Part shown: positions 2,467 to 54,444 of the stretch, piece after piece | How positions within the stretch are numbered: the first letter of the stretch is position 1 | Layout: each line of letters starts with the position of its first letter | Virus record (IMG/VR): IMGVR_UViG_3300036766_002286 | Length of the DNA stretch: 64,000 bases | Source: a virus | Lineage: Duplodnaviria > Caudoviricetes | Direction: 5' to 3' (one strand) | The notes under the pieces: model-generated | What the model was told of the DNA's origin: nothing | Databases searched by the model: none | Seen by the model: only the letters and a program-made list of their open reading frames with translations | Made by a program: the position numbers and the translations under genes

Positions 2467-2717
2467 GTGATAATACCTCTCTTTTCTATTATATATAGTG
2501 CTTAATTATAAATTCCGTGCATTCTCTGGAAATACTCATTTTATTCATTTTTATTAAATTACATTATATAGCGATATTTACCATATATACTATCACAAAA
2601 ACTAGTAAGATATATGTCACAGTGCTTCTTATAATAATTATTTTAGATAACAATACCAAGAGTACGCCAATTCGTCTGTTTTAGCAGTTAATGGTCCGAT
2701 CCTGCACTAGTACCTAT

Positions 2718-3785: not shown

Positions 3786-3826
3786 CCTACTTGTCTATTT
3801 TGGCTTTTAACATACAATAATACAAC
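3783..3826 (+). promoter_or_regulatory. Leaderless sigma70-type promoter TTGTCT-16-TACAAT, 8 nt before ATG; upstream TAGCCTACTTG repeated at 4754-4764
   Basis: Direct reading; same architecture recurs at many genes in the window. Confidence 0.6.
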
Positions 3827-4714: not shown

Positions 4715-4796
4715 AGTTCGATAGATTTTTCTTTTAGCTAAAACCTAAAAAACTAGCCTACTTGCTCTTATTTTAAAAGCGCGAACTGTATAGGGC

Positions 4797-6053: not shown

Positions 6054-6159
6054 GTATATAATACCAAAACCAGTGCTAACTATAGCTTTAAACTTGCTCG
6101 CGCCAATAGTAAATCATTAAACACATCTATTTAGATCCCGCTTTTATGAAAGGTGGAAT

Positions 6160-7419: not shown

Positions 7420-7421
7420 AG

Positions 7422-7462
7422 AAAGCACCAGAGTAGATAACAGTCTCTTCTGGTGCTTTTTT
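7422..7462 (+). terminator. Rho-independent terminator
   Basis: AAAGCACCAGA...TCTGGTGCTTT stem followed by T-tract. Confidence 0.75.
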
Positions 7463-7476
7463 ATTTACTATTTTAC

Positions 7477-8736
7477 CCCGAGAAGGCCCTTGCCTTTAGA
7501 CGTGGGTATGCATTTCTCTGATTTGCGACATACTGTTATTATATTGCAATGTGTGTTACGGTCGTAAATGTGAAAGAAACTGTCCGTTACAACTACCGTC
7601 TACGTCCCTCTGACGCCGTGGAACGTGCCTTGCTGACTGAATGGAGTCGGTGCCGATGGGTGTGGAACGAAAGCGTGGCAACACTACAAAAGCATAAGAT
7701 ATGGGTTAAAAGCACGGATCTGACTGCGTGGAGAGCGCAATATGACTGGCTGCGAGCAGGCAGCAGTGTCGCCCAACAACAGATAATGCGCGAGTTCGCA
7801 ACGAAACGAGCTAAAAGTAAAGGTCGCCGAAAGTTTAAAGCTGACCGCAAAACTTTACCTAGTTTGAACTATGTACGGACAGGGTTTTCGGTCAAAGATG
7901 GCCGCCTCAAAATTGCGGGAGGTCATATCATTCCGGTTGTATGGTCACGTGAATTTCCTAGTAGTCCGACCTCAGTGCGTATCTACCGGGACACCCTCGG
8001 ACATTGGTATGCGTCGTTCGTTGTTGAACGCGAAATAAATGTTCCCCCACAAACAGAAAAAAATGATTGGCATTGACTGGGGTGTGAAAACGATAGCCAC
8101 AACAACCGATCCTACTTACGATCTACTGGCAACGGGCTATGGAAAACGTTCTGCGTCACTGTTGGCCTGTTCTCAGCGGAAAATGGCCCGGCGACGCCCA
8201 ATGCCTGGCAAAAAATCGTCTAACGGGCACAGGGAAGCAAAAAAACAGACTGCAAGAATTGCCAAAAAGGTCGCCCGACAACGTAAAGACACCGTTGTAA
8301 AATGGGTGAAACGTGTCGTAGATAATCACTGTTTGATCGCTGTCGAAAATTTCAAACCGGCATTTTTAGCAAAATCATCGATGGCCCGCAAAGCCGCCGA
8401 CAATAGTATTGGGTTAACGAAAAGAGAACTTATTTATCGTGCCAAGCGGGTGGGCCGGGAGGTGGTAATGGTCTCTCCCGCATATACAACAATGACATGT
8501 GAAAAATGTTTGACGAGAACCAAGTCAAGAATTTCGCTGTCTCAACGAATCTTTCTGTGTTGGTTCTGTGGTCACACCGCAGATCGTGACAGGAATGCCG
8601 CGGGAACGATTCTCGCCACGGCTGGGCTGTACCGTGTTAGCGCTGACGCTGTAAGACATCTCATCTTTTCTTCGGAAAAGAGACAGATGCTAGCTGAGTT
8701 AGGAATCCCCCGGCTTTAGCCGTGGGGAGCGGTCAA
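7477..8736 (+). mobile_element. IS200/IS605-family (IS1341-like, tnpB-only) insertion sequence
   Basis: Preceded by TTAC (7473-7476); left-end hairpin 'aaggcccttgcctttagacgtggg'; right end 'gaatcccccggctttagccgtggggagcggTCAA'; TTAC/TCAA and GAAT match IS608-type cleavage and guide motifs; contains tnpB only. Confidence 0.85.
7549..8719 (+). pseudogene. tnpB: TnpB RNA-guided endonuclease split by a +1 frameshift in an A7 run (~8057-8063)
   Basis: ORF 7549-8076 has HTH/WED 'YNYRLRPS...RWVWNE...GHWYASFVVE'; ORF 8039-8719 has RuvC IGIDWG, AVENF, DRDRNAA and Zn ribbon CEKC/CWFC; deleting one A fuses them (TEKMIGIDWG). Confidence 0.85.
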
Positions 8737-9224
8737 AAAATACTCAAAGCAACTATTTGCAACAACGCTCCATAGGCACCGAATTTCGTGTCTATTCCTC
8801 CAGCTAGCATATCTGAGCCCGCCCGCATTAGTACTAAACCCGCCGCATCAGGACACACAATTTCGGCCCAGGCAGCGTGTTCGTCTGCCAACCTAAGTGA
8901 CTTAGGAGAATCTGCGAAATTTGAATCTAAAATTTCAGATCCTGCCCCCGGGTATCCAGCTGCTCTAGCTAAGCTAGCACTAAGCACGCTCACTGCGGCT
9001 TTACCATATCGTTTAGGGTTATTTAAAGAACTTGCTCCAACTATGGCAGCCCACGCATCCGCGCCCAGCACTGCTGCTGCCATATCTACTCTGCCGCAAT
9101 CAAGCAGCTTTACTCCACATTTTGTAGCCAATGCGCGCAACAACGCTCCAGCTTGAGTTATAGGAACTTTAGGGGATCCAAAACGAGTAACCTCTTTTTT
9201 CATGGCTGGTTGGTTATGCGGCAT
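8733..9224 (-). CDS. Hypothetical protein; its stop codon is supplied by the IS right end
   Basis: 163-aa Ala-rich ORF with leaderless-type -10 (TAATAT-6-ATG); TGA is the complement of TCA in the IS end TCAA. Confidence 0.6.
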   Translation of the reverse strand: MPHNQPAMKKEVTRFGSPKVPITQAGALLRALATKCGVKLLDCGRVDMAAAVLGADAWAAIVGASSLNNPKRYGKAAVSVLSASLARAAGYPGAGSEILDSNFADSPKSLRLADEHAAWAEIVCPDAAGLVLMRAGSDMLAGGIDTKFGAYGALLQIVALSIF

Positions 9225-9286
9225 GTTGGCATATTAACAGTTTCGGACCTGTTTTACGTCTGGTATATAGCATCGCGCATGCTTGT

Positions 9287-9742
9287 TTACGCTGGTGAGA
9301 AAATAAAAGCATCCAGGTCAAGCCCCGCTAATTTTTCTTTTATAAGAGGTTCCACATCTCTCCAATGTAGCCCACCAAGCCCACAACCAAGTGGTGGTAT
9401 TGCCATAGACTTTATACTTAGCTCAGTAATTACCCGTCTCAAATCATCTAAACCTACAGCTATATCGTTAATATTACTATCTAGTCGCCAGTGACTTTTT
9501 GTAGGAAAATTGATAATATAGTGAACCCCAAGTAGTGAATTAATTTCGAATATGAACATGCAACCAAGGCACACTTTCCCATTTTTACAGGCTTGCTCAT
9601 AGGCTTTAAAATTGTCGGGAAAAGCGCGTTTAAACTGCAAAGCCAGGCCTTTTCCCATTACCCCTACGGTGTTTACGGTATTTATAATAGCGTCACACGG
9701 GCTTTCAAGAAGATTTCCAGAGGCATCAATAAAGGTAGTCAT
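9287..9742 (-). CDS. Stand-alone DarG-type macrodomain (ADP-ribose glycohydrolase)
   Basis: NTVNTVGVMGKGLALQFK, IINFPTKSHWR, AIPPLGCGLGGL are DarG macrodomain signatures; lacks DarG C-terminal domain. Confidence 0.9.
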   Translation of the reverse strand: MTTFIDASGNLLESPCDAIINTVNTVGVMGKGLALQFKRAFPDNFKAYEQACKNGKVCLGCMFIFEINSLLGVHYIINFPTKSHWRLDSNINDIAVGLDDLRRVITELSIKSMAIPPLGCGLGGLHWRDVEPLIKEKLAGLDLDAFIFSPA

Positions 9743-9839
9743 TTTATAATAACTATAAGCGCTTTTTACTATAATATCTTAAAATACTTAAATTTTTTAT
9801 GTGTGTGCCATAATTAAAAGTGTCTGCACAGTATATAAT

Positions 9840-12074
9840 GTGGACCCATCAAAGACAAGAATAACTAGACCTATATTTCTGACCCGAGAAGCAGGCTCTC
9901 TTAAACTTGCCTTTAGTTATAATCCAGCAATAGTAGAGAAGGTTAAAACTCTTCCGTACGCAAGCTTTGATGGGGACACTAACGCATGGAGTGTAGATTT
10001 AACTAAACAAGCAGTCGAGATTTTACGACAGTGGTTTTATACCGAAGGCCTAACCGATGTCTACGTTGATGAATTACTTAATCCAAACGAAGTTTTACCA
10101 GAAGCCTACCCAGCAATACTTCGGCCGGGTACTTTAAAACGTCCTTATGTGGTTTTAATGGGATTCCGTGATGAAAGCTTATTTGTCCGCCTCCGCAGTG
10201 TACCTGGGGCTCAGTGGGAAAAAAAGATGCGGGGATTGTCATATCCAGCCACCTCGGCCGCTGCTTTAAGTGAGCTTGTACAAAGAGGAGTAATTCATGA
10301 TACTCAACGAGTGTTAACACCTTCAAATATAACAGTAACTTTTGATGGCAGAACTGGAGTTTTTAAGGTTCTAGGGGACTCTAGAGCCCAGACTGCTTTT
10401 ATGCGTAATTTTCCAAGTCGTGATATTGTCAGTGATTGGCGCGCTAAAGGTTTTGATGTAGGCTTTGTCAATCAATTCGCAGAAGAAGTTTATAGAGGCG
10501 AACGCGCCCGCATCACTAAAGCAGTTCAGCCCGTAGGATTACTAGAACCTTTATTTGAGTATCAATGTTTAAATGTAGCAGTAGCCGTCGAACGCACTGG
10601 TTTTGGTGTGTGGGATCAGCCCGGCCTAGGTAAAACAGCAACCGCCATCGGCTGGGCCTGGGAACTAATTGTTAATCGTAAGTCTGCAGATCGAGTAATA
10701 ATTGTAGTCCCAGGTACTATAAAAACTCAGTTTGCTAGTGAAATAACTAGATTTACAGGAGATACAGATATTGTTATAGTAGACGGAGATAAAAAGAAAC
10801 GTATAGACCAATATAAGTGCGCCGCGAACGCGCGTTGGGTTATTTTAAATTATGAGCTTTTGCACTTAGATTACCAGTTCATACAACCACTGGTTGCTGG
10901 CTCCCTGCTTGTAGCTGATGAAGCCCATCGTCTAAAAACACGTACAAGTAAACGCACTAAAGCTATGCGCCAACTAGCACTTAAAGCTAGTCGAAGACTT
11001 GCCTTAAGTGGTACTCCTATCGAAAATAATCCAGGGGAATGGTATAATTTAATGAATGGTTTTGTTGTTCCTGGCATTTTTGGCAGCCCATTAGAATTTT
11101 TCAACCGCTACAGTTATCCGGGCCGCTTTGGTGGCTTTGAGGGTGCCCGTAATTTAGGAGAACTCCAGTTGCGCTCGAACCCGCATTATATTCGTCATAG
11201 AAAATCAGAGGTTGCCAAACACCTACCGCCCTTATTAGTAAAAAATGAAATAATCGATCCAGATGAGCGTTTAGCCGCCGCATTAAAACGAGCACATCGT
11301 GACGCCCAAGAAGAGATTGCTCAAGCCGCCAAAGACAAGAAAAAATTAGGAATTTTAGATGGAGAATTAGAAGATATCATAGAAACCGGCGCAGCCATGA
11401 CGGCTGTTGGTATGTTACGTTTAATGTGCTCATCTCCTAAATTAATATGGCAAAGCACAGCCCCTTCTGCAATTGCTTTATGTCAAGCCGGTTTAATACC
11501 AGATATTGATGGTCCTAAACTAGATGAACTTCGTCTCATGGTAGCTGAGTTACAAGAGGCGGGTGAACGAGTGGTTGTGTTTACGGGTTTCAGATCAATG
11601 GCCAAACTAATAGCAGAACGCTTTGATCAAGATAGTATTCGTTATGTGCTTTTTACTGGACATACTAGTAAAAAAGATAGAGAACTTTCAGTACTCAAAT
11701 TTAATACAGCTTCCACAGAAACAGATCCAGGTCCGACTGTTTTTCTAGCAACCGATGCTGGAAGTGAGGGGCTAAATCTCGGAAAATGTTGTTCAACAAT
11801 TATAAATTTTGATCTTGCTTTCAAACCATCAACCATGACGCAAAGAGCAAACCGTATCCATCGTGTTGACGGGGATCCTACTAAACGTTATCTTGTTATA
11901 AATTTTACACTTGCTAAAACCATTGAAGAAGGTATAATAAAGTTAGTAGGGACTAAAGCCGACTTATCTGACGCTATTTTAGGCGAGATGGGTACCAGAA
12001 AAAGCGCAACGGGTCGCGGTGGTCGTAACGTATATGAGCAGGCCTTAGAAAGTTGGCAAGAAGCTGCAAAATGA
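9840..12074 (+). CDS. SNF2-family helicase with N-terminal HARP-like repeats (SMARCAL1-like)
   Basis: DQPGLGKT, DEAH, LSGTP, TDAGSEGLNL, QRANRIHR; N-terminal 'FSYNPAIVEKVKTLP..F....AW' HARP-like. Start GTG 9840 fits CACAGT-7-start pattern (ORF track start 9801). Confidence 0.88.
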   Translation: MDPSKTRITRPIFLTREAGSLKLAFSYNPAIVEKVKTLPYASFDGDTNAWSVDLTKQAVEILRQWFYTEGLTDVYVDELLNPNEVLPEAYPAILRPGTLKRPYVVLMGFRDESLFVRLRSVPGAQWEKKMRGLSYPATSAAALSELVQRGVIHDTQRVLTPSNITVTFDGRTGVFKVLGDSRAQTAFMRNFPSRDIVSDWRAKGFDVGFVNQFAEEVYRGERARITKAVQPVGLLEPLFEYQCLNVAVAVERTGFGVWDQPGLGKTATAIGWAWELIVNRKSADRVIIVVPGTIKTQFASEITRFTGDTDIVIVDGDKKKRIDQYKCAANARWVILNYELLHLDYQFIQPLVAGSLLVADEAHRLKTRTSKRTKAMRQLALKASRRLALSGTPIENNPGEWYNLMNGFVVPGIFGSPLEFFNRYSYPGRFGGFEGARNLGELQLRSNPHYIRHRKSEVAKHLPPLLVKNEIIDPDERLAAALKRAHRDAQEEIAQAAKDKKKLGILDGELEDIIETGAAMTAVGMLRLMCSSPKLIWQSTAPSAIALCQAGLIPDIDGPKLDELRLMVAELQEAGERVVVFTGFRSMAKLIAERFDQDSIRYVLFTGHTSKKDRELSVLKFNTASTETDPGPTVFLATDAGSEGLNLGKCCSTIINFDLAFKPSTMTQRANRIHRVDGDPTKRYLVINFTLAKTIEEGIIKLVGTKADLSDAILGEMGTRKSATGRGGRNVYEQALESWQEAAK

Positions 12075-12186
12075 TTACTAGTAAGAGTAATCATTATTTG
12101 CAGATATCGGCGCAACCTGGCGTGCAGCTACTATGTGGATTTGTTCCTATACTGTTCTTCGATATGATTAAGACGGCGGTACTCTC

Positions 12187-13119
12187 ATGATAAATACACC
12201 AAAGCCAACAAAACCGCAACAACTAGGTATTAATGGACTACCGCTTGTTCCTATAACGAGTGCGGAATACAACGAACGTAATCAGGCCTTGTTTGCACGC
12301 AGATTAACAGTTGTGGCATCTCTTAAACTTGCACCCGGAAAATCTACGGCAAGTGTGCGAAAACATAATAAACTCAAAAGAGAATTAGAAAAGGTAGATA
12401 CTGAACTTGTGACTCTTAACTATGGTCTGGTACATAACTATGTAAAGAGATTCACATCAGCTTCTTCCAGCCACGATGCTAGAGATTTTGAGGGGGCTGC
12501 TGTAGTGGGGTTGATGATGGCAATTGGCTCCTATGATCCGACTTTTGGTTCAAAATTTTCTACATGGGCCTATAAGCCCATACAGCGCGCGTGTTTAAAG
12601 GCTGTTCGTGACGCGGATTTTAAAGAACTTACTACTGCTGATTTTGAGAAAAGACCTGATATATTACGTGCCACTAAAAAAGTTCAACTAAAAAACCCTA
12701 CGGTTAGTATAATAGATTATGCAGCTATAGCAAAAATATCAGGAGCATCTGTTGAGACTGTAAAACGAGTACTACATGCCCCTACCACAGATTCGCTTTC
12801 TCGCCCAGTAGGCGATGACACCACATCTGATTTGTCAGATACGCTACCAGATCTCGCCCTCGGTGTGGAAGATCTGGTACTTAGTTCCCATGAAGTTACA
12901 AGTCTTGAAAACTATGGTTTAACAGCCTTAGACGCTAGAGAATTTTTTGTCATATCCAGACGATACGGTTTAGATGGCGATGTCCCACAGCGATTGAGCG
13001 CGATTGGAAAAATGTTAAAATTATCACGTGAAGCTGTTCGTCAAATAGAAGCTAAAGCGCTAAGCAAGCTGAATCATCCAATCATTAGACGGAAACTTGT
13101 ACGTCACGGCCGGCCTTAG
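12187..13119 (+). CDS. Sigma-70 family RNA polymerase sigma factor
   Basis: NYGLV..YVKRF, GLMMAIGSYDPTFGSKFSTWA, region 4 'LSREAVRQIEAKALSKL'. Confidence 0.92.
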   Translation: MINTPKPTKPQQLGINGLPLVPITSAEYNERNQALFARRLTVVASLKLAPGKSTASVRKHNKLKRELEKVDTELVTLNYGLVHNYVKRFTSASSSHDARDFEGAAVVGLMMAIGSYDPTFGSKFSTWAYKPIQRACLKAVRDADFKELTTADFEKRPDILRATKKVQLKNPTVSIIDYAAIAKISGASVETVKRVLHAPTTDSLSRPVGDDTTSDLSDTLPDLALGVEDLVLSSHEVTSLENYGLTALDAREFFVISRRYGLDGDVPQRLSAIGKMLKLSREAVRQIEAKALSKLNHPIIRRKLVRHGRP

Positions 13120-13133
13120 ATTTAAAACACAAA

Positions 13134-13151
13134 GACCCCCTTGCGGGGGCC
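13134..13151. terminator. Hairpin between convergent sigma genes (probable terminator)
   Basis: CCCCC-TTGC-GGGGG stem in the 37-bp gap. Confidence 0.45.
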
Positions 13152-13156
13152 AATTG

Positions 13157-14509
13157 TTATACTACAACTGTACTGTGAATTATATCCCACAGCTCATTTG
13201 TAGCATTAGCGGATTCAAGGTCATTTCGGTCCCCGGCGTAAATAAATGTTTTTGCAATGTTTGCACGAACATATGCCGGAAAGCTTGTTAACCTTATATC
13301 CCAGTTTTGAAACAATGTCCACAATGCTTGAGCGGCACTTGCCTCTCCAATGTGGATCTTTGTTTTGATGTCTGTTGCAGTAATACCTTTTGAACCTCGA
13401 GTTGCTATATCAGCTATCATGCTGCGGCTTAGAAACATAAATTCCTCACCAATCAACTTTAAGATATCATTTTGTGTATTACTGTTAAGTTTTTGCCCAA
13501 CAACGCTATCAGAATAACGAGTTAGTCTGCCTCTAAGATCTTCAAAGCTTGAAGATCTGTAGTTTGTAACATGGGCGGTAGTTTCCCCGAGAAGCTTAGC
13601 TATTTCAATGTCAGAAGGTCGCTCAAGAGTTTTTTCCATTAAAGCAGATTCAATAATACGAATCTTTGCTTTAGTTTCTACTCTTCTAGCTATCTCGCGT
13701 CCAATACCCGTAAAACTCGCAACTTCTAATAACGAAGGAGTGTATACTCCATATAGTCCGCATCTTTGTGAAATAATCCAAAACTCCAGGTCATTAAGAT
13801 CTGATAGATAATGCTCAAAAGGAATTTCCATTCCATTTATATCTAATTTATCAGCCAGCATGCTGCCCATAGTTGTTGGATCAGTATTATGGTTACCAGT
13901 AAATATAGGTTGTTCCAGAGATGCAGGTGCACCTTCAAATATGTGAAGTACTTTATCTACAGATAGCCCGGTGAATGCAGCAGTCTCTTCTACAGTAGGC
14001 ATTCTACTTAATCTTACTGCCATCTGTCCTTGAGCGAGGATAACTTGTTTGCGCAAATTAAAATCTGCTTGAGAAATATGTGAAAATTCATTGCGTCTGA
14101 CCGTTCTTTGAACAGCGCCTGCCATGAATTGTCGTGAAAATGTAGAAAAAGCTACTCCCCGATCTGGGTCATACTTTTTGAACGCTTCCCATAATCCCAA
14201 AGTTGCTGCAGACACATTGTCTTGATCTGCGTCAACACCGCGTTGAAATAAACGGGCTTGCGAGTGAATAAGACGTTCATTGATAATGAAAAATTCTCTA
14301 CCAATAGCGTCTAATTCTCTTGCTAATTTGCGAGATAAAGAGTTATTATGTTGCACCTTTTCAGTTGCAAGGAGCGCAGTTATTTCAATATAACGGCGCC
14401 TCAACGTCGGATTTCGATCGGCCCATGCGATATCTGTTTTAGATACTACAGGTTTCAATGCCACCCGAGGCGTGTTTGTACTATTTTTTTTACCTTTGTG
14501 TGTGGCCAT
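13157..14509 (-). CDS. Sigma-70 family factor with duplicated C-terminal region-3/region-2-like modules
   Basis: GLWEAFKKYDPDRGVAFSTF (region 2), RMPTVEETAAFTG (region 3), SLLEVASFTGIGREIARRVE (region 4), then ERPSDIEIAKLLG and ALWTLFQNWD..LTSFPAYV. Confidence 0.85.
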   Translation of the reverse strand: MATHKGKKNSTNTPRVALKPVVSKTDIAWADRNPTLRRRYIEITALLATEKVQHNNSLSRKLARELDAIGREFFIINERLIHSQARLFQRGVDADQDNVSAATLGLWEAFKKYDPDRGVAFSTFSRQFMAGAVQRTVRRNEFSHISQADFNLRKQVILAQGQMAVRLSRMPTVEETAAFTGLSVDKVLHIFEGAPASLEQPIFTGNHNTDPTTMGSMLADKLDINGMEIPFEHYLSDLNDLEFWIISQRCGLYGVYTPSLLEVASFTGIGREIARRVETKAKIRIIESALMEKTLERPSDIEIAKLLGETTAHVTNYRSSSFEDLRGRLTRYSDSVVGQKLNSNTQNDILKLIGEEFMFLSRSMIADIATRGSKGITATDIKTKIHIGEASAAQALWTLFQNWDIRLTSFPAYVRANIAKTFIYAGDRNDLESANATNELWDIIHSTVVV

Positions 14510-14546
14510 GGCCTATACTATTGCTGCTATTTCAGCCAGACCAAGT

Positions 14547-15233
14547 TTATAGAAAGTCTAATTCAGAAGCTTTTTTCAATACCGCTTTATATGCTAAGTT
14601 TGCCAGCTCTAAAGTAACTACTGCATCTGATATATTATAAGCTCTAAGTTCTTTACCCGTCAGGTCATGTATGCCGTCTCCATTTACTTCAACTGGAGTA
14701 AAGCCCAGAAATTTAGCTACAGGTTTTAAAGACCAAGTAATATTATTAAATCTGGCCATATCTTCATACAGTGGCGCTATATCCACATGTATTAAGTTAT
14801 GCCACCTCGCATGTACTGGTAATCCTAATTCTAAAGACATTGGATATTTTGGCACCATATCAGGATCGGCTTTCACACGCAGCCCCAGATCTAAGCCTAG
14901 TTTGCTTGCTCTAACATTAACAAAAGGAATATCAAAACCGCAACCATTCCAAGTCACAAGTATCCCTTGATGTAAACTAATAATATCATCACAATCTATG
15001 AGCAAAGCACGTTCGTCTGCATTAGTTAAACAAACCGGAATTCTGTCATTGAATGCTAGACCTGCTGCAACTATCTGAGCTAGTTCTGGATTGAAGCCGT
15101 TTCCATCTGATGTATCAGTTTCTATATCAAAAGATATAAAAGGGCATTTTTGTGGTGCAGCATCGTCTGCTACTACCAATCTTGGAGTGCTCGCTTCTAG
15201 GACAGCTGCGTATTTTGTAGGATTTATAGCCAT
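14547..15233 (-). CDS. DnaQ-like (DEDDy) 3'-5' exonuclease
   Basis: ExoI FDIETD, ExoII WNGCGFDIPF, ExoIII YNISD. Confidence 0.85.
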   Translation of the reverse strand: MAINPTKYAAVLEASTPRLVVADDAAPQKCPFISFDIETDTSDGNGFNPELAQIVAAGLAFNDRIPVCLTNADERALLIDCDDIISLHQGILVTWNGCGFDIPFVNVRASKLGLDLGLRVKADPDMVPKYPMSLELGLPVHARWHNLIHVDIAPLYEDMARFNNITWSLKPVAKFLGFTPVEVNGDGIHDLTGKELRAYNISDAVVTLELANLAYKAVLKKASELDFL

Positions 15234-15324
15234 GCTTTTATTGTGCCATACTTATTCAATCTAGCACTCATCTTAAATTTAGAGCTCCAAGACGAATTTA
15301 AGAGCGCCTGCACAATATAATACT

Positions 15325-16437
15325 ATGAATAGTATCCAAGTAATTGTCTTATTTATTGCCTCCGTACTACTAACTAAACCTCTTGTTCTCTTAGCCGCCA
15401 ATCGCTCAAAGCACCAGCCCCTTCCGTACCACTTAGACGAAGAGAGAAATATTTTAGCCACAGTATTAAAAAATCCAGCGTCCATAGAGCTTATAGCCGA
15501 CTTGCAAGCCGATCATTTTGTAGATCCTACTTATGGGCGACTGTGGAGTATTATGCATAAATATGTTAATACTTCAAAATCAACACATACAGTTCATGTA
15601 CATCCAAAATTTCCAGATGATGATATAGATCTACATGACTCTTCTCCTTTATTAGACATATTTGATGTTCCAGATATTGCATTAGCTAGTGCACTTTTAA
15701 GTTACGATTCTCTAAACTCAAACGACCTAGTACATCAAGCAGAGCTAGTATATAATTCTGGACTTAGTCGTGACCAATATGTGGGGCGCCTTTCAATAGA
15801 ACAAACAGGGGACCCGCTACTTCCCTTGCACTATGAAGTGCTGCCAGCAACCAAATTTTCTATATTCACAACTTTTATGATGTTATTTATTGGTTTTCGT
15901 GTATCACATATAACAGCTAATAGCTTATATGAAGGATCAGCTGCAACCTTAATGACTCTTTCATTAAGTGTTCTAGTTATAGGATCAGTAATATGGACAT
16001 TGGTCGATATAGATACCCTATATATAGACGTGGCCAGTTTATATGTCATCGGGGGCCTGGCTTGGATTCTTGCAGTAGCAGGATCTTATGTAAACCATAC
16101 TTTAAATACCCAACTCCTTGGGGTTGGAGCCGCCATGGTTGTGGTTTTATTTATAGGAGTCATAAGTCGTTTTTACACCAGTATTCGTAGTCAAACAGGC
16201 ATGGGTGGTGGAGATTATAAAATAATGCTAATTACAATAGGTGTACCCGTAGCCGTTACAGGTAATTTTGTTTTAGGAAATCAAATTTTAATGTTTTCAT
16301 TATTTTCCGGTATAGTTGGGTGGTTGATTAAACGTTGCACACAACCCGGTTTTACTAAGGACAGCCCGTATGCCTTTGGGCCGTATTTAGCTGGCGGCTG
16401 GATTATAGCTTTAGCTGTCTGGCGGTTGTTTTCATGA
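15325..16437 (+). CDS. Fusion: N-terminal TM helix + DnaB N-terminal-like domain + A24 prepilin peptidase
   Basis: 'EERNILATVLKNP...LQADHFVDPTYGRLW' parallels 'EAEVSVISALLTTP...LSAEDFAIVAHQDIY' of neighbouring DnaB; C-half is multi-TM with VDIDT, GMGGGDYK, PYAFGPYL peptidase motifs. Confidence 0.78.
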   Translation: MNSIQVIVLFIASVLLTKPLVLLAANRSKHQPLPYHLDEERNILATVLKNPASIELIADLQADHFVDPTYGRLWSIMHKYVNTSKSTHTVHVHPKFPDDDIDLHDSSPLLDIFDVPDIALASALLSYDSLNSNDLVHQAELVYNSGLSRDQYVGRLSIEQTGDPLLPLHYEVLPATKFSIFTTFMMLFIGFRVSHITANSLYEGSAATLMTLSLSVLVIGSVIWTLVDIDTLYIDVASLYVIGGLAWILAVAGSYVNHTLNTQLLGVGAAMVVVLFIGVISRFYTSIRSQTGMGGGDYKIMLITIGVPVAVTGNFVLGNQILMFSLFSGIVGWLIKRCTQPGFTKDSPYAFGPYLAGGWIIALAVWRLFS

Positions 16438-17831
16438 CAAATGACCCAGCTAGGTACCTTCCAGCTGACATGGAAGCGGAAGTCAGTGTTATTAGCGCGT
16501 TACTGACTACTCCAGAACTCTTTTTAGATATTACCGCCGTATTATCTGCGGAAGATTTTGCTATTGTTGCTCATCAGGATATCTATCGTGCTGCTGTACA
16601 ATGTGATGCGACAGGTCAACCTGTAGACGCTATAACTGTGGCAGACGCCTTGAAGCGCGTTAAGCGTTTAAATAAAGTAGGCGGCCAAAAAGCGCTTGAT
16701 GCTTTTGTTAATAATACAAGTGAAGTAATAAATATACTAGCACATGCTAATATAGTATTAGACAAATCAAAATTACGAAGACTTCTTGCTGCAGGAAAAA
16801 ATATAGCAACTGCCGCAACTTCTCCTGACGCGGTTGCAACAGTTGTCCTTGAATCAGCCGAGGAGCAGATATTTGAATTGGGTCGGGAACGCACCCATAG
16901 TAGTATGTTAGAAATGGCTCAAGCAGTCCCGCAAATGTTAGACAGCCTCGCCAAAGCTCGTGCTTGTTCACTAGTCGGCCACTCTAGCGGTATTGAGGGT
17001 CTAGATAAACTTACCGGAGGTTTTCAAGGCGGACAGCTTATTATATTAGCCGCACGTCCGGCCATGGGGAAATCAGCACTGGGTGTTCAGATAGCCAGAC
17101 ATATAGCAGAAACAACCGGCACCTATGTACCGCTCTTAAGCTACGAGATGAGTGTTACAGAAATAACTACTAGAATGCTAGCCACAGCCACTGGTTATGA
17201 TCTTCTAAAATTAAAAAGCGGTAGCATTCCAGAAAACATGTCTCATAATATGGCTCAAGCAGCACAAAAAATGGCAGAATTAACAATGCTTATAGATGAT
17301 AATCCGCCATCAACTATCGGCGGGGTCAGATCCGCCATGAGAAGGCTAGCACGTAGAGGAGAAGTTGGCGCCATTGTGATAGACTATTTACAACTTATGA
17401 GTGGAGAAAACAAGTTCTACTCAGAAAATCGTAATCAAGAAGTCTCAGAAATATCTAGAGGTCTAAAACGCTTAGCCACTGAATTAAATGTCCCCATCAT
17501 AGCCTTATCACAACTTAATCGTCAACTAGAACAACGTCAAGAAAAACGCCCCGGTTTGTCAGATCTTAGAGAATCAGGATCACTCGAACAAGACGCCAAT
17601 GCAGTTCTATTTTTATTTCGTGAGCACGTATATAATACTACTGTTCCAGCCGACCGAGCAGAATTAATAGTAGCAAAGCAGCGCAATGGCCCGCTTGGTA
17701 CTATACATTTATCTTTTAATGGTGCATGTGCTAAATTTACTGAAAATATTAACAGAGGCGCCGCAGCTCCGCCAGGTACGCTCAACAGCCCAAGTAAAAT
17801 GCAATCACGAAATAATCTAGGTTTTCAATAA
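16434..17831 (+). CDS. dnaB: Replicative DNA helicase DnaB
   Basis: AARPAMGKS, SYEMS, VIDYLQLM, ALSQLNR, LRESGSLEQDA, AKQRNGP; ATGA overlap with upstream gene. Confidence 0.96.
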   Translation: MTNDPARYLPADMEAEVSVISALLTTPELFLDITAVLSAEDFAIVAHQDIYRAAVQCDATGQPVDAITVADALKRVKRLNKVGGQKALDAFVNNTSEVINILAHANIVLDKSKLRRLLAAGKNIATAATSPDAVATVVLESAEEQIFELGRERTHSSMLEMAQAVPQMLDSLAKARACSLVGHSSGIEGLDKLTGGFQGGQLIILAARPAMGKSALGVQIARHIAETTGTYVPLLSYEMSVTEITTRMLATATGYDLLKLKSGSIPENMSHNMAQAAQKMAELTMLIDDNPPSTIGGVRSAMRRLARRGEVGAIVIDYLQLMSGENKFYSENRNQEVSEISRGLKRLATELNVPIIALSQLNRQLEQRQEKRPGLSDLRESGSLEQDANAVLFLFREHVYNTTVPADRAELIVAKQRNGPLGTIHLSFNGACAKFTENINRGAAAPPGTLNSPSKMQSRNNLGFQ

Positions 17832-17987
17832 ATTATCGCATATTTATTAAAATTATTATACTTTAATAAATATATAGCATCGCTTGCCTTGTATTGCATA
17901 CAATAGGCACAAAAATAGCACAACTACCTTGTTCGTATTCGGTCTAGAACAATTGCGCAATATAGCTACCCGCGCACAATATAATAT

Positions 17988-18260
17988 ATGAAACAACTGC
18001 AGCCAGACAGTCTGCTTGATAGCTTGGGTATTGATTCTTTGGCCATACAAGACTCGGTAACTTCAGCTGTACTTGAATACCTAAAAGCTAAGCATATAGA
18101 TGCCAGTGTATATGGTATACGTTGGGGAAGATTAACTATTCAAGCGAATCAACACAATGCAGCACTTTTATGTTATGAGCGCGACTCTTTATTAAAGATC
18201 ATACGTGATAACAGTAAAAATAAAATAACAGAAATACGTATCAAAATAGGAGATCTCTAA
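17988..18260 (+). CDS. DciA (DUF721)-like helicase-loader protein
   Basis: 'IRWGRLTIQA...AALLCYERDSLLKII....ITEIRIKI' matches the DciA fold pattern; lies directly after dnaB; promoter TTGCGC-16-CACAAT-7-ATG. Confidence 0.55.
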   Translation: MKQLQPDSLLDSLGIDSLAIQDSVTSAVLEYLKAKHIDASVYGIRWGRLTIQANQHNAALLCYERDSLLKIIRDNSKNKITEIRIKIGDL

Positions 18261-18850
18261 TGAGTGAGTTTACTTTAGGCGTAGATTTAGATGGGGTAGT
18301 TGCGGACTATGAAGGCCGTCTGCGCGAAATCGCAGCCGAAATATTAAAACTTGATGTGAAAAAATTCCCGCAAGCCACAAATTGGAGTTTTGTTGACTCG
18401 GGTTGGCCATTTGATGATGTGCAACATTATCTAGAAGTACATAAAGAAGCAGTGAGATCTCATGGATTGTTTAGACGCATGGCGACTATACAAGGTGCAA
18501 GCGAGGCACTTTGGCGTATGAGCGATGCTGGGATACGAGTACGTATAATAACTCATAGATTAGTAGTTAATGGTTCGCACGCTATTGCAGTGAGCGATAC
18601 CGTTAATTGGCTTGATGATAAAAGAATCCCTTATCGCGATATATGCTTTGTACGAGATAAAGCAGTAGTGGGGGCGGATTTGTACATTGATGATAGTCCT
18701 AATAATATTAAAATTTTACGAGAATCAGCCGGAGATGATGCCGTCATGATTTACGATCAATTATATAACAGACATATGGACGGTCTGCGCGCGTACAATT
18801 GGGATGATGTTTTAGCACGAGTCGCTCTACAAACAGGTCTAGAGTTATAG
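18260..18850 (+). CDS. 5'(3')-deoxyribonucleotidase (NT5C-type HAD phosphatase)
   Basis: GVDLDGVVADY, IITHR, DK, YIDDSPNNI, YNR motifs. Confidence 0.88.
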   Translation: MSEFTLGVDLDGVVADYEGRLREIAAEILKLDVKKFPQATNWSFVDSGWPFDDVQHYLEVHKEAVRSHGLFRRMATIQGASEALWRMSDAGIRVRIITHRLVVNGSHAIAVSDTVNWLDDKRIPYRDICFVRDKAVVGADLYIDDSPNNIKILRESAGDDAVMIYDQLYNRHMDGLRAYNWDDVLARVALQTGLEL

Positions 18851-19026
18851 AATCTTAACTATATTTTATATTTATTACGCAATCCCTTCACCGAAAATTC
18901 GAAGGCATTTAGTGCCGATCCAAATTCTTAGGTATAGTAAACTTTAATACGTCACTCTCTACTTGCCATGATTGCTTGGGTATATTTATATTCATTTGCA
19001 ATAAATTGTCACGGCTCGATCTGCAC

Positions 19027-25966: not shown

Positions 25967-26169
25967 CCCGGCAATAACGCCTAAATATGTCCGGGCAACA
26001 ACTGGCATATCAATATTTATAAGGAGCACTCAGACATTATCTGAGTGCTTTTTATGATTAATGGCTGTTTTACTCTATTTAGGTATTAATAATTTTGAAG
26101 AGTTGTTTTATCCAGAACAGCAGCTATAGTATGTCTCGTACTTATATCCATCGATCGCAGGTTGCACTT

Positions 26170-27498
26170 ATGACTGATAAAGAAATTAAGCGACCGACTT
26201 CCGGATCGCAAAATAAATCTAGCAAACTGAAATTTAGTCGCCAAGACATAGAACGCGCTGATGGAGAAATTCTCTTAGCATTCGCTATTCTTGGCCTAGT
26301 TTCTAAAGAAAATACTCTTGTATGTCCAGTATGCGGAACCTCTCGTAATAAAAAAGTTGAGGTTAAAACATCTGCCTCTAGTGGTAGACTATATTGGACA
26401 TGCCACCGCTGCCCAGAAACTTGGGGCGGCTCTGCAATAGACTTACTAGAACAACACGGCGGTCGCACTTTTGTACAAGCCGTAAATGAATTGCTCGGTA
26501 TTGTCAAAGGAACTGCTACTGCTGTTTTACGCCCTAACATATCCATATCGGACGCGTTTAGTGCGGTCGTAGATGTAGAAATTTATGATGCCTTATGTTC
26601 CTATGGAAATCTTGAAGCCGCGCAACAATATTACGCTCAGTGGCATATAGATCCCATTTTCGTGGCTGAAGCCGGCGGCACTATGCTGCTTGATTGTGAC
26701 GCCATAATCAAAGATCTACTTGTTAGATTCGGACTTGAACGTCTTGTTCAATGCGGACTAGTTACTCAAGATAAACATGGTAATCCTGTGTTTTTATTTA
26801 GTAACGATTACTGTGTAATAGAACCTCACCAAGCTCCTAGCGGACATATTGTAGGTCTGCAATTTCGACCAAGTGTTGCTAGAATGGTTGCGATTACTGC
26901 GCACAAAGCCTGGAAAGCGCGCTGGAGTAATATACCAGACGCAAAAGGCAGTATACAAGATCCAACAGATGCCTGGCGTGAAGCTTATACAAAAGATCGA
27001 TCCGTGGGGCCAAAAATGCCTTATGTGACACCTTTTTTGTCTTTACGTGGCGGTACTCCAGATCATCTAGTGGGCTGTGGTTTAAAGCGTTTGCTTGAGA
27101 TTCCAAAAGGCAGCACCGTATATGTAGTGGAAGGTTTCAAAGATCTTCTCGCAGCCAGAACTCTAGGAGTAGAGGCTTACGCCATTCCTGGTACTGGGGT
27201 TATGCCTCCAGAAAGAAGCATAGAACTATTGCGTCAGCACAACGTCATTGCAATGTTGGATGGCGACGCTGCTGGAGCAAAAGCTCGAGAGCATCTGGTT
27301 AGTTATTTGACTGACCGCGGTGTAGCATGTAAGCCTTTTGAAAATATTCGTGAAGGCCTAGACGTAGCTGATATTTTAGTTGAACGGCACGCACATGCAC
27401 TATGCCAATGTCCCACATGTATACAGTGGGTAGCCAGTCATCCATATGACCCAAGCACTTGTCCTTGCAAAACCTGCAAGAAATCAAGAGCCAAATAA
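26170..27498 (+). CDS. DnaG-like primase (Zn finger + TOPRIM) with Cys-rich tail
   Basis: CPVC...CHRC zinc finger with GGSAIDL; TOPRIM VVEGFKDLLA and LDGDAAG; DVADIL; tail CQCPTC...CPCKTC. Confidence 0.85.
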   Translation: MTDKEIKRPTSGSQNKSSKLKFSRQDIERADGEILLAFAILGLVSKENTLVCPVCGTSRNKKVEVKTSASSGRLYWTCHRCPETWGGSAIDLLEQHGGRTFVQAVNELLGIVKGTATAVLRPNISISDAFSAVVDVEIYDALCSYGNLEAAQQYYAQWHIDPIFVAEAGGTMLLDCDAIIKDLLVRFGLERLVQCGLVTQDKHGNPVFLFSNDYCVIEPHQAPSGHIVGLQFRPSVARMVAITAHKAWKARWSNIPDAKGSIQDPTDAWREAYTKDRSVGPKMPYVTPFLSLRGGTPDHLVGCGLKRLLEIPKGSTVYVVEGFKDLLAARTLGVEAYAIPGTGVMPPERSIELLRQHNVIAMLDGDAAGAKAREHLVSYLTDRGVACKPFENIREGLDVADILVERHAHALCQCPTCIQWVASHPYDPSTCPCKTCKKSRAK

Positions 27499-54153: not shown

Positions 54154-54444
54154 ATGGCCACTATCAGACAGTTCTTACACAGCATTACAACTTTAATATC
54201 TTCTGTATCTATCAAATTATTTATGATCATACGTACTTCTATTTCTACGTGTTTATTTCCTCAACCACGTCCAACATATGCTCGAGCGTCCAAATCACGT
54301 CGTGGAGTAGGCACCCTAGAGTACGTACTAATGGCCGCAGTGGGTATTGGGGCTTACGTACTTGTCGATAAATTCTTTTTAGGCAATGGTGGATTTATTA
54401 GTAAGATCACGAAAAATGTTGGCGATATGTTTGGTGGCGGCTAG
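54154..54444 (+). CDS. Flp/type IVb pilin-like protein
   Basis: Class III signal RRG|VGTLEY followed by hydrophobic helix; promoter TTGCGC-16-CACTGT-7-ATG. Confidence 0.7.
   Translation: MATIRQFLHSITTLISSVSIKLFMIIRTSISTCLFPQPRPTYARASKSRRGVGTLEYVLMAAVGIGAYVLVDKFFLGNGGFISKITKNVGDMFGGG

What the first reader, a model, noticed from the sequence alone, without database searches (positions are those of the whole stretch)
15325..18260. Membrane-anchored DnaB-N-terminal-domain / prepilin-peptidase fusion translationally coupled to dnaB, followed by a dciA-like gene
Seen: after one TM helix, residues ~35-80 (EERNILATVLKNPASIELIADLQADHFVDPTYGRLW) parallel the N-terminus of the adjacent DnaB (EAEVSVISALLTTPELFLDITAVLSAEDFAIVAHQDIY). 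The C-terminal half is a polytopic A24 aspartic peptidase with both catalytic Asp motifs (VDIDT, GMGGGD) and PYAFGPYL. Its stop overlaps the dnaB start (ATGA). Established: the DnaB NTD forms the helicase collar and binds primase; A24 peptidases mature type IV/Flp pilins. I know of no described fusion of the two. Inference: it could tether the element's helicase or primase to the membrane at a pilus-assembly site, coupling replication to DNA transfer or segregation. It could instead make pilin processing conditional on replisome state. A candidate substrate, the Flp pilin, lies at 54154-54444.
Basis: partly seen in the sequence, partly recalled or inferred. Interest (0 to 1): 0.8.

Follow-up and report, generated by a model that had tools for sequence, protein, structure and literature searches.

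The report
Prepilin-type peptidase carrying a DnaB-like domain
A conserved membrane protease of the prepilin-peptidase (A24) type carries a cytoplasmic domain related to the N-terminal domain of the replicative helicase DnaB, and its gene usually overlaps dnaB in uncultivated giant (0.4-0.8 Mb) actinobacteria-linked replicons; I found no description of it and its function is untested.

Summary
ORF 15325-16437 (370 aa) has one transmembrane (TM) helix, a DnaB-N-terminal-domain homologue and a seven-helix membrane core.

- **DnaB-like domain:** Pfam PF00772 scores 29.2 bits (cut-off 23). The fold matches the DnaB N-terminal domain (NTD) at Z 11.5.
- **Membrane core:** its only invariant residues across 119 diverse relatives are D228, G294 and D297, the two Asp of GxGD/A24 proteases. 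Its fold matches FlaK (Z 9.0) and predicted prepilin peptidases (TM-score 0.71-0.80).
- **Weak point:** Pfam's A24 model does not hit this protein itself.
- **Orientation:** Lys/Arg distribution puts the DnaB-like domain and both Asp in the cytoplasm, where PilD carries its Zn/methyltransferase domain.
- **Not a chimera:** a profile of the core alone retrieves 334 clusters, and 138 of the top 150 carry the N-domain. Both halves are under purifying selection.
- **Context:** the gene lies in a conserved sigma/SNF2/dnaB/NT5C/ClpC core block of giant replicons. The stop overlaps the dnaB start in five of the ten lineages sampled by exact-protein look-up.
- **Named relative:** only one, an "A24 family peptidase" on Paenarthrobacter plasmid pYJN5-1.
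- **Unproven:** any contact with helicase or primase, the substrate, the Flp candidate and the dciA call.

This is a new variant of a known protease family.

The parts
15325..16437 (+). Fusion gene (370 aa, P0001): TM1, then DnaB_N-like cytoplasmic domain, then beta-hairpin, then A24-type seven-helix core
   Evidence: ORF list; Pfam; AF2 model with pLDDT 84; family of 334 clusters
15331..15411 (+). TM helix 1 (residues 3-29). The N-terminus is predicted outside. It is followed by the nearly invariant R27 and P32.
   Evidence: AF2 secondary structure; hydropathy; Lys/Arg distribution; conservation
15421..15780 (+). DnaB-N-terminal-domain homologue (residues 33-152), predicted cytoplasmic
   Evidence: PF00772 29.2 bits; 66 of 119 relatives hit PF00772; VIA-align Z 11.5 to 1b79_A, with DnaG C-terminal domain 2r6a_C at Z 11.4; family N-domain HMM hits own DnaB at E 5.3e-10; dN/dS 0.10-0.24
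15781..15852 (+). Conserved beta-hairpin linker (residues 153-176; family consensus GSARIERTGDPxRPLRR, with R149 and R170 nearly invariant)
   Evidence: AF2 strands 156-163 and 166-172; alignments
15853..16434 (+). A24 (GxGD) aspartyl-protease core, 7 TM helices (residues 177-370). D228 is codon 16006-16008, D297 in GMGGGD is codon 16213-16215, and PYAFGPYL is residues 348-355.
   Evidence: Invariant D228, G294 and D297 in 119 sequences; core model pLDDT 97.5; FlaK 3s0x_B Z 9.0 with 149 aligned; ESM Atlas prepilin-peptidase clusters TM-score 0.71-0.80; PF01478 hits in 10 of 119 relatives
16434..17831 (+). dnaB, replicative helicase (465 aa). Its start overlaps the fusion gene's stop (ATGA).
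   Evidence: TIGR00665 442 bits; PF03796 and PF00772; sequence
17988..18260 (+). Conserved 90-aa ORF downstream of dnaB, a possible DciA-like helicase loader (weak support)
   Evidence: Conserved in 7 loci; Atlas structure top row is a DciA cluster, TM-score 0.63; PDB profile hit 8a3v_C DUF721 at E 0.85; no Pfam hit
18260..18850 (+). NT5C-type 5'(3')-deoxyribonucleotidase. Its start overlaps the previous ORF by 1 nt. It is the last gene of the co-directional run.
   Evidence: PF06941 113.8 bits; syntenic in all close relatives
14547..15233 (-). DnaQ/PolB-exo-like 3'-5' exonuclease, divergently transcribed from the fusion gene
   Evidence: PF03104, PF10108 and PF13482; syntenic
12187..14509 (.). 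Two sigma-70-family genes (12187-13119 on +, 13157-14509 on -). In most lineages they are the constant upstream neighbours of the fusion gene.
   Evidence: Pfam; contexts
26095..27498 (+). Toprim primase (467 aa) with no recognisable C-terminal helicase-binding domain
   Evidence: Toprim at residues 340-431, nothing after it, and no PF08278 or PF10410 hit
54154..54444 (+). Candidate Flp-type prepilin (P0014): ...SRRG|VGTLEYVLMAAVGIGAYVLV..., giving a 45-aa mature part. Unverified.
   Evidence: Translation. It is the only class-III-signal-like ORF in the window apart from one match inside the fusion gene itself. Upstream geometry TTGCGC-N16-CACTGT-7 nt-ATG. No Pfam hit, and no relatives found.

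Best explanation
The gene encodes a catalytically intact, divergent member of the A24 (GxGD, prepilin-peptidase-type) intramembrane aspartyl proteases. The cytoplasmic N-terminal module that bacterial PilD-type enzymes carry after TM1 (the Zn/Cys N-methyltransferase domain, PF06750) is replaced by a homologue of the globular N-terminal domain of DnaB, a fold shared with the DnaG C-terminal domain. Predicted topology is N-terminus out, TM1, DnaB-like domain in the cytoplasm, then seven helices, with D228 and D297 at the cytoplasmic face.

The protein is a hallmark of the replication/transcription core block of a lineage of giant (0.44-0.81 Mb), mostly uncultivated, actinobacteria-linked replicons. 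There it is typically co-transcribed and translationally coupled with dnaB.

Most likely mechanism (inferred): the core cleaves class-III-signal (prepilin/Flp-like) membrane proteins at the inner face. The DnaB-like domain acts as a protein-protein docking module that places this membrane protein next to the element's helicase or its CTD-less primase. The result would be a membrane attachment point for the element's replisome.

My odds:
- architecture and homology, about 0.95
- active protease, about 0.8
- contact with DnaB or primase, about 0.35-0.4
For: DnaB-like domain:
- PF00772 scores 29.2 bits against a 23-bit cut-off.
- 66 of 119 relatives hit PF00772 and 4 hit DnaG_DnaB_bind.
- The fold matches 1b79_A at Z 11.5 (90 aligned, 2.0 A), and also 2r5u, 4nmn and DnaG-CTD 2r6a_C.
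- The family N-domain HMM hits the elements' own DnaB NTDs at E 5e-10 to 8e-8.

A24 core:
- Only D228, G294 and D297 are invariant in 119 sequences at 20% mean column identity.
- PF01478 hits 10 of 119 relatives, best E 6.7e-7.
- PF01478 aligns over 3-102 of 104 positions on the Paenarthrobacter member, at 12.9 bits.
- RefSeq names that member 'A24 family peptidase'.
- FlaK 3s0x_B is the single PDB hit with Z >= 8: Z 9.0, 149 of 186 aligned.
- The nearest ESM-Atlas folds are PF01478/PF06750 prepilin-peptidase clusters, TM-score 0.71-0.80 over 172-186 of 199 residues.
- P0131 combines a true A24_N_bact domain (83 bits) with this family's type of core, E 3e-19. This shows the two N-domains occupy the same position.

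Topology: across 119 sequences about 11 Lys+Arg lie on the N-domain side and about 0.7 on the other side.

Reality and selection:
- A profile of the core alone finds 334 clusters.
- 138 of the top 150 carry the N-domain.
- dN/dS is 0.06-0.37 in both halves.

Link to dnaB:
- Stop/start overlaps are ATGA or TGATG in the window, L001, L014 and L019, plus one more by coordinates.
- dnaB is adjacent in every close relative, L022-L028.
- dnaB lies within 5-10 kb in two further lineages.
- The primase lacks a recognisable helicase-binding CTD.
Against: - Pfam PF01478 does not hit the window's protein at all, and Foldseek finds no significant PDB match.
- No physical link to DnaB or primase is shown.
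- dnaB is not within the available flanks in three lineages (P0137/P0170, P0053, P0069). It is 9 kb away on the opposite strand in pYJN5-1.
- In the model the globular DnaB_N part is followed by short helices and a beta-hairpin. The long helical hairpin that builds the DnaB collar and the DnaG site is missing.
- The fusion protein diverges much faster than its neighbours: 33-39% identity against 60-74%.
- No pilus machinery is seen in the scanned window ORFs.
- The only candidate substrate is unverified.
- pYJN5-1 already has canonical peptidases for its two type IV pilus loci.
Confidence: 0.5

Rival explanations
1. It is an ordinary prepilin/Flp peptidase with an exapted scaffold domain. The DnaB_N-like fold would simply replace PilD's N-domain as a structural or substrate-handling module and would never touch the replisome. 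Adjacency to dnaB would only reflect inheritance of a rigid core gene block.
For: - The whole 12-gene block (sigma, SNF2, sigma, sigma, exonuclease, fusion, dnaB, small ORF, NT5C, delta', ClpC) is syntenic, so adjacency alone is weak evidence.
- dnaB is absent from the flanks in three lineages.
- The DnaB collar hairpin is missing in the model.
- A Flp-like ORF exists in the window.
Against: - Stop/start overlap with dnaB is kept between lineages only 26-40% identical in the fusion protein.
- The N-domain keeps the DnaB_N sequence signature (P32, E40, F65) under purifying selection.
- No pilus genes lie near any family member examined, and no class-III-signal ORF is found beside the others.
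Confidence: 0.33
2. It is a regulatory intramembrane protease of the element's replication/transcription module. It would cleave a membrane-associated regulator, or process one of the adjacent unusual sigma factors. This would be analogous to SpoIIGA/pro-sigma-E, where a membrane aspartic protease is encoded beside its sigma substrate. The DnaB-like domain would be the sensing or recruiting module.
For: - One or two sigma-70-family genes are immediate neighbours in 8 of 10 sampled lineages.
- The catalytic Asp are invariant.
- Fast evolution of the protein fits a regulatory or interface role.
Against: - A24 enzymes are known only to cut class III signal peptides of membrane-inserted substrates (established knowledge).
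- The sigma factors have no predicted TM segment that I saw.
- No candidate anti-sigma gene was identified, and nothing was tested.
Confidence: 0.1
3. It is a membrane-anchored helicase loader or helicase inhibitor. The gene sits where phage and plasmid loaders sit, directly upstream of and coupled to dnaB. The membrane core would serve only as an anchor.
For: - Gene position and coupling.
- A DnaB/DnaG-type interaction fold.
Against: - Invariance of exactly the two catalytic Asp and the GxGD glycine across 119 sequences argues that proteolysis, not mere anchoring, is selected.
- A separate DciA-like candidate loader follows dnaB.
Confidence: 0.06
4. It is an assembly chimera or a gene-calling artefact that joins a DnaB fragment to a peptidase gene.
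For: Only one sequencing run holds this DNA.
Against: - The same architecture appears in 138 of 150 independent cluster representatives from many samples.
- It also appears on a finished plasmid of a cultured strain.
- A second assembler gives an identical 77.9-kb contig.
- Both halves are under purifying selection.
Confidence: 0.01

Closest known systems
PilD / XcpA / TcpJ-type bifunctional prepilin peptidases (MEROPS A24A; Pfam PF06750 A24_N_bact plus PF01478 Peptidase_A24)
   Same: - The layout is the same: TM1, cytoplasmic N-module, then a polytopic core with two Asp (the second in GxGD) at the cytoplasmic face, and a P-[FY]-x-x-G-P-[FY]-L motif before the last helix.
- The nearest predicted folds are these proteins, TM-score 0.71-0.80.
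- P0131 has a PilD N-domain on this family's type of core.
   Different: - The Cys-rich N-methyltransferase module is absent and replaced by a DnaB_N homologue plus a beta-hairpin.
- The core is too divergent for PF01478 to score.
- The gene is not in a pilus or secretion locus but in a dnaB operon.
FlaK / PibD / TadV (CpaA): A24 peptidases without a methyltransferase domain; FlaK structure 3S0X
   Same: - GxGD aspartyl-protease core.
- FlaK is the best and only PDB match with Z >= 8: Z 9.0, 149 of 186 residues, rmsd 3.7 A.
   Different: - About 10% sequence identity.
- Those enzymes lack any DnaB-like domain and are encoded with their archaellum or Tad machinery.
DnaB N-terminal domain (PF00772) and the homologous DnaG C-terminal helicase-binding domain (PF08278)
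   Same: - Sequence-profile membership, 29.2 bits.
- Fold match at Z 10-11.5 to 1b79, 2r5u, 4nmn, and 2r6a chain C.
- The signature residues are conserved.
   Different: - No RecA-like helicase domain and no primase domain is attached.
- The long helical hairpin that forms the collar dimer and the DnaG-binding site is not seen in the model.
- The domain is flanked by TM helices.
- It is not a recent copy of the neighbouring dnaB: BLASTP E 0.4.
WP_193593890.1 (HMI59_RS22805), 'A24 family peptidase' of Paenarthrobacter sp. YJN-5 plasmid pYJN5-1 (NZ_CP053545.1)
   Same: - Full-length family member: 414 aa, 28% identity over residues 136-364, the same N-domain and motifs.
- It lies beside a sigma-70 gene, with a DEAD/SNF2-type helicase, a macro-domain gene, ParA and a DnaB 47% identical to the window's within 20 kb.
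   Different: - dnaB is 9 kb away on the other strand.
- The plasmid also has two type IV pilus loci with their own canonical peptidases.
- It is high-GC, from a cultured host.
Functional analogues only: Bacillus subtilis DnaB (replication initiation and membrane attachment protein) and SpoIIGA (membrane aspartic protease encoded beside its substrate pro-sigma-E)
   Same: They are precedents from established knowledge. One is a membrane-attached helper of helicase loading. The other is a membrane aspartic protease whose gene sits next to a sigma gene.
   Different: There is no sequence or fold relationship to either. They are cited only as working models.

Membership tests
Peptidase A24 (GxGD prepilin-type aspartyl proteases) | Two catalytic Asp in separate TM-proximal segments, the second in a GxGD motif | tested here: met
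   D228 (VDIDT) and D297 (GMGGGD). D228, G294 and D297 are the only invariant columns in 119 relatives and are again invariant in the core-only alignment.
Peptidase A24 (GxGD prepilin-type aspartyl proteases) | Polytopic membrane core with both Asp at the cytoplasmic face | tested here: met
   Prediction only. The AF2 model has 8 helices. The Lys+Arg count over 119 sequences is about 11 on the side carrying the N-domain, D228 and D297, against about 0.7 on the other side.
Peptidase A24 (GxGD prepilin-type aspartyl proteases) | Sequence-profile match to PF01478 | tested here: inconclusive
   - No hit for the window's protein at E <= 10.
- 10 of 119 relatives hit, best E 6.7e-7.
- The pYJN5-1 member aligns over 3-102 of 104 positions but at 12.9 bits, below the 26.5 cut-off.
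- The family core HMM hits a canonical prepilin peptidase over its full length at 16.5 bits.
Peptidase A24 (GxGD prepilin-type aspartyl proteases) | Same fold as solved or predicted A24 enzymes | tested here: met
   - FlaK 3s0x_B at Z 9.0, 149 aligned, the top hit and the only one with Z >= 8 among 48,161 chains.
- ESM Atlas PF01478/PF06750 clusters at TM-score 0.71-0.80, rmsd 2.6-3.2 A.
- Foldseek against the PDB was not significant.
Peptidase A24 (GxGD prepilin-type aspartyl proteases) | Cleaves class III signal peptides after the conserved Gly | not testable with these tools
   This needs a cleavage assay. The only candidate substrate is P0014 at 54154-54444.
PilD-type bifunctional peptidase/N-methyltransferase (A24A) | N-terminal Cys-rich A24_N_bact domain (PF06750) | tested here: not met
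   No PF06750 hit in the window's protein or in 118 of 119 relatives. Only P0131 has it.
DnaB N-terminal domain (PF00772) | Profile match above Pfam's gathering score | tested here: met
   29.2 bits against 23, residues 33-100. 66 of 119 relatives match at E <= 0.1.
DnaB N-terminal domain (PF00772) | Globular helical fold of the DnaB NTD / DnaG CTD | tested here: met
   Z 11.5 to 1b79_A (90 aligned, 2.0 A). Z 11.1 to 2r5u_A. Z 11.4 to the DnaG CTD, 2r6a_C.
DnaB N-terminal domain (PF00772) | The following helical hairpin that forms the collar dimer and the primase-binding site | tested here: inconclusive
   The model shows short helices (107-152, pLDDT as low as 40) and then a beta-hairpin at 156-172, not a long helical hairpin. 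This is a prediction only.
DnaB-family replicative helicase | RecA-like C-terminal ATPase domain (PF03796) | tested here: not met
   Absent from the fusion protein. It is present in the next gene, 16434-17831.
DciA (PF05258 / DUF721), for ORF 17988-18260 | Profile match to PF05258 or a significant match to a solved DciA | tested here: inconclusive
   - None of the 7 orthologues hits PF05258 at E <= 10.
- The family profile reaches the DUF721 chain 8a3v_C only at E 0.85.
- The top Atlas structural row is a DciA cluster, TM-score 0.63, and the feature score is 0.88.
Flp/Fap pilin (PF04964), for ORF 54154-54444 | G/XXXXEY processing motif followed by a hydrophobic helix, plus a profile match | tested here: inconclusive
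   The motif RRG|VGTLEY followed by a hydrophobic stretch is present. There is no Pfam hit at E <= 10, no relatives were found, and gene callers start the ORF downstream of the motif.

The most novel reading that the evidence does not exclude
The DnaB-like domain really binds the element's DnaB or its CTD-less primase. A catalytically active intramembrane protease would then be a physical part of the replisome of giant actinobacterial replicons. It would act as a proteolysis-competent membrane anchor that couples helicase loading, or replication and segregation, to the cell envelope. No known system combines a GxGD protease with a replicative helicase.
Probability: 0.25. Interest if true: 0.85.

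Novelty: new variant of a known kind. Interest (0 to 1): 0.62.

Why it matters
- A24 peptidases are known only as maturases of pilins, pseudopilins and archaellins, and their accessory domain is a methyltransferase. This family swaps in a replisome-type interaction domain and is wired into a dnaB operon, which points to an unrecognised link between an intramembrane protease and DNA replication.
- The family has at least 334 clusters at 50% identity.
- It is a sharp marker for a poorly known class of 0.4-0.8 Mb replicons that carry their own sigma factors, helicase, primase, PolA, ClpC and FtsH.
- One member sits on a plasmid of a cultured Paenarthrobacter strain, so the question can be tested genetically.

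Tried and rejected
**Complex prediction**
- DnaB (alignment A6) with N-domain residues 28-176 (A1) gave no verdict, score 0.00. This is not evidence either way.

**Sequence and fold searches that gave nothing**
- The family profile against PDB sequences found nothing relevant.
- Foldseek against the PDB found no significant match for the whole model or for the core.
- hhalign of the 13-sequence core profile against single canonical peptidases was weak, E 3e-4 over 27 columns and E 0.02 over 87 columns. My own hhalign script failed.

**Collection scans**
- tblastn of the protein found no phage record and only one plasmid.
- blastn found only short dnaB matches.
- Pattern scans of GTDB representative genomes and of IMG/VR found no relative. 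These scans use a few back-translated motifs, so absence is not shown. The broad alignment A3 was too diverse for such scans.
- No whole genome is held for the window.

**Expression**
- No RNA holder is listed. Only the probable source run holds the DNA.

**Flp candidate**
- No Pfam hit, no Atlas neighbours and no metagenome relatives.
- No class-III-signal ORFs lie next to family members in other loci.

**Ideas dropped**
- A recent duplication of the neighbouring dnaB NTD is rejected: BLASTP E 0.4.
- The primase has no relative on pYJN5-1.

**Literature**
- No paper on a DnaB_N/A24 fusion was found, and none on these replicons.

Full report
**What is at the coordinates.** ORF 15325-16437 (+) encodes 370 aa. 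Its TGA stop shares the tetranucleotide ATGA with the start of the next gene. That gene is a full-length replicative helicase, with TIGR00665 at 442 bits and both DnaB_N and DnaB_C domains. A 90-aa ORF (17988-18260) and an NT5C-type deoxynucleotidase (18260-18850) follow on the same strand. Upstream and divergent lie a DnaQ/PolB-exo-like exonuclease and two sigma-70-family genes.

**The DnaB-like part.**
- Residues 33-100 match Pfam DnaB_N (PF00772) at 29.2 bits, above the 23-bit gathering score, E 9.7e-07. NCBIfam DnaB models and PHROG 19 also touch this stretch.
This is not a recent duplicate.
- At profile level the relation is solid. An HMM of the family's N-domain hits the window's own DnaB NTD at E 5.3e-10. 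It also hits the DnaBs next to two relatives, at E 5.6e-10 and 8.4e-8.
- An AlphaFold2 model built on 13 homologues has pLDDT 84 and pTM 0.78. Residues 34-149 of it superpose on DnaB NTD structures: 1b79_A at Z 11.5 (90 residues, 2.0 A), 2r5u_A at Z 11.1 and 4nmn_B at Z 10.7. They also superpose on the homologous DnaG C-terminal domain, 2r6a_C at Z 11.4.
- In the model the globular part is followed by short helices and a conserved beta-hairpin (156-172). The long helical hairpin of DnaB is not there.

**The peptidase part.**
- Pfam's Peptidase_A24 model does not hit this protein even at E 10.
- Conservation: in an alignment of 119 cluster representatives with 20% mean column identity, the only invariant columns are D228, G294 and D297. 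These are the two catalytic Asp and the GxGD glycine of A24 enzymes.
- Sequence links: ten of the 119 relatives hit PF01478 on their own, best E 6.7e-7. On the one RefSeq member, PF01478 aligns over 3-102 of its 104 positions, though at only 12.9 bits. RefSeq calls that member 'A24 family peptidase'. The family core HMM reaches a canonical prepilin peptidase over its full length.
- Fold: a model of the core alone, built on 118 sequences, has pLDDT 97.5. Its single PDB match with Z >= 8 is FlaK, the only solved A24 protease: 3s0x_B at Z 9.0, 149 of 186 residues, 3.7 A. In the ESM Atlas its nearest folds are prepilin-peptidase clusters carrying PF01478 and PF06750, TM-score 0.71-0.80 over 172-186 of 199 residues.
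- Same position as PilD's N-domain: one relative, P0131, combines a genuine PilD N-domain (A24_N_bact, 83 bits) with this family's type of core (E 3e-19 to the core profile). The DnaB-like domain therefore sits where PilD-type enzymes carry their Cys-rich methyltransferase module.
- Foldseek against the PDB was not significant.

**Topology.** Using the model's helices and all 119 sequences, I counted Lys+Arg per loop. They accumulate at the ends of TM1, TM5 and TM7, at the start of TM2 and in loop 7-8, about 11 per protein. The loops on the other side hold about 0.7. This puts the DnaB-like domain, D228 and D297 on the cytoplasmic side. That agrees with the known orientation of A24 active sites (established knowledge from PilD/TcpJ and FlaK). 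It is a prediction, not an experiment.

**Is the fusion real?**
- A profile of the core alone, searched against 1.84 billion cluster representatives, gave 334 proteins at E <= 1e-3 and 182 at E <= 1e-10. Almost all are 320-430 aa long with the core at the C-terminus.
- Of the 150 listed, 138 carry the N-domain by the family HMM. 108 carry it by an HMM built from only the 13 closest sequences. The exceptions are mostly fragments.
- Both halves are under purifying selection, dN/dS 0.06-0.37 in three pairs.
- A second assembler's 77.9-kb contig from the same sample covers 14500-18900 without a difference.
- A chimeric assembly is excluded.

**Genomic setting.**
- The window's contig is 616 kb, from a sediment metagenome. 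No genome is held for it.
- Relatives lie on contigs of 450,656 bp, 812,457 bp and 177,689 bp. One lies on the finished 440-kb plasmid pYJN5-1 of Paenarthrobacter sp. YJN-5.
- In the window's clade a 12-gene block is syntenic: sigma, unknown, SNF2 helicase, sigma, sigma, exonuclease, fusion, dnaB, small ORF, NT5C, pol III delta', ClpC. The neighbours are 60-74% identical but the fusion protein only 33-39%.
- Among ten lineages sampled by exact-protein look-up, dnaB directly follows with a stop/start overlap in five. These are the window, P0002, P0003, P0024 and P0040, with ATGA or TGATG junctions.
- dnaB lies 5-10 kb away in two lineages, P0100 and pYJN5-1. It is not in the available flanks in three.
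- Sigma-factor genes are immediate neighbours in eight of the ten.
- The window also encodes PolA, FtsH, ClpC and a Toprim primase. That primase ends about 35 residues after its Toprim domain and shows no helicase-binding C-terminal domain.
- I found no pilus-assembly genes among the window ORFs scanned.
- pYJN5-1 has two type IV pilus loci about 10-35 kb from its family member, each with its own canonical peptidase.
- Earlier notes of this scan on other windows of the same contig also read it as a giant, AT-shifted, actinobacteria-linked element. The Paenarthrobacter relative found here agrees with that.

**The two side claims.**
- The 90-aa ORF after dnaB is conserved in seven loci. It has no Pfam hit. 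The family profile reaches the solved DciA (DUF721) chain 8a3v_C only at E 0.85. The Atlas's structural top row is a DciA cluster, TM-score 0.63. 'DciA-like' is a reasonable lead and no more.
- ORF 54154-54444 reads ...SRRG|VGTLEYVLMAAVGIGAYVLV..., which fits the Flp G/XXXXEY motif with a 45-aa mature part. Apart from one match inside the fusion gene itself, it is the only such ORF in the window.
- Its ATG sits 7 nt after a TTGCGC-N16-CACTGT element.
- It has no Pfam hit, no detectable relatives and no pilus neighbours, and a public gene call starts downstream of the motif.

**How it most likely works.**
- Shown: homology and fold of both halves, conserved catalytic residues, predicted cytoplasmic orientation, operon-like coupling to dnaB, and purifying selection.
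- Inferred: the core is an active prepilin-type protease that cuts class-III-signal membrane proteins at the inner face. The DnaB-like domain's only known relatives mediate helicase-helicase and helicase-primase contacts. I infer that it docks the protein to the element's DnaB or to its CTD-less primase, which would give the replisome a membrane attachment point.
- My odds are about 0.35-0.4 for this docking step.
- The main rival, at about 0.33, is that the domain is an exapted scaffold and the protein is simply the element's Flp or pilin peptidase.
- A regulatory protease acting on the adjacent sigma factors or another module protein (about 0.1) and a membrane-anchored loader or inhibitor (about 0.06) are less likely. 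The second is disfavoured by the invariance of exactly the catalytic residues.

**Novelty.**
- Full-text searches found no paper on a DnaB_N/A24 fusion.
- Automated pipelines see one half or the other: Pfam DnaB on this protein, 'PulO-like' or 'A24 family peptidase' on two relatives.
- I class it as a new variant of a known kind, namely an A24 protease with a new accessory domain and genomic wiring.
- It would become much more interesting if contact with the replisome were shown.

Noticed in passing
window 26095-27498 (+): The element's Toprim primase (467 aa) ends about 35 residues after its Toprim domain (340-431). Pfam finds no DnaB-binding C-terminal domain, while a DnaB_N/DnaG_C-fold domain is encoded on the membrane peptidase next to dnaB.
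   Followed up: partly
window 1-18850, and L001, L022-L028: A conserved 12-gene core block (ClpC, pol III delta', sigma, unknown, SNF2 helicase, sigma, sigma, exonuclease, fusion, dnaB, small ORF, NT5C) is shared by contigs from several metagenomes. Neighbour proteins are 60-74% identical, which marks a distinct lineage of giant replicons.
   Followed up: partly
P0131 (316 aa, Logan contig of up to 7.5 kb): A relative combines a canonical PilD N-domain (A24_N_bact, 83 bits) with this family's type of core, which PF01478 does not detect. It may be an evolutionary intermediate for the domain swap.
   Followed up: partly
L008/L009: Paenarthrobacter sp. YJN-5 plasmid pYJN5-1, 233-300 kb: The only cultured-host relative carries two type IV pilus loci with their own prepilin peptidases. 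The family member, a sigma gene, a DEAD/SNF2 helicase, a macro-domain gene, DnaB, ParA and FtsK/SpoIIIE lie within about 70 kb, interrupted by two copies of an IS1133/aph(6)-Id/aph(3'')-Ib resistance cassette.
   Followed up: partly
window 54154-54444 (+): The Flp-like ORF is preceded by TTGCGC-N16-CACTGT and 7 nt before its ATG, which is the leaderless promoter geometry. A public gene call instead starts at residue 60, downstream of the processing motif.
   Followed up: partly
window 55831-57681 (+): A second, divergent DnaB_C/AAA_25-type helicase-like protein (616 aa, PF03796 31.6 bits) lies next to a NusA-like KH-domain gene (54854-55708) and a DUF1643 gene (53479-54030).
   Followed up: no
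window 28122-29996 (-), 4-2466 (-) and 51433-53001 (-): The element encodes its own FtsH (AAA plus M41), a ClpC/ClpB-type chaperone and a further AAA/AAA_lid_6 ATPase. This is an unusual load of proteostasis genes for a mobile replicon.
   Followed up: no
L023 (Ga0194133_10005577) 2338-4733 and 9152-10654: The SNF2 and DnaB matches are each split into two overlapping tblastn pieces in this contig but not in the near-identical L022. This suggests frameshifts or assembly errors there.
   Followed up: no
P0022, P0041, P0079, P0080, P0089 (470-544 aa): Longer family members have 100-150 extra residues inserted within or before the DnaB-like domain. No Pfam match was found for the extra parts.
   Followed up: partly
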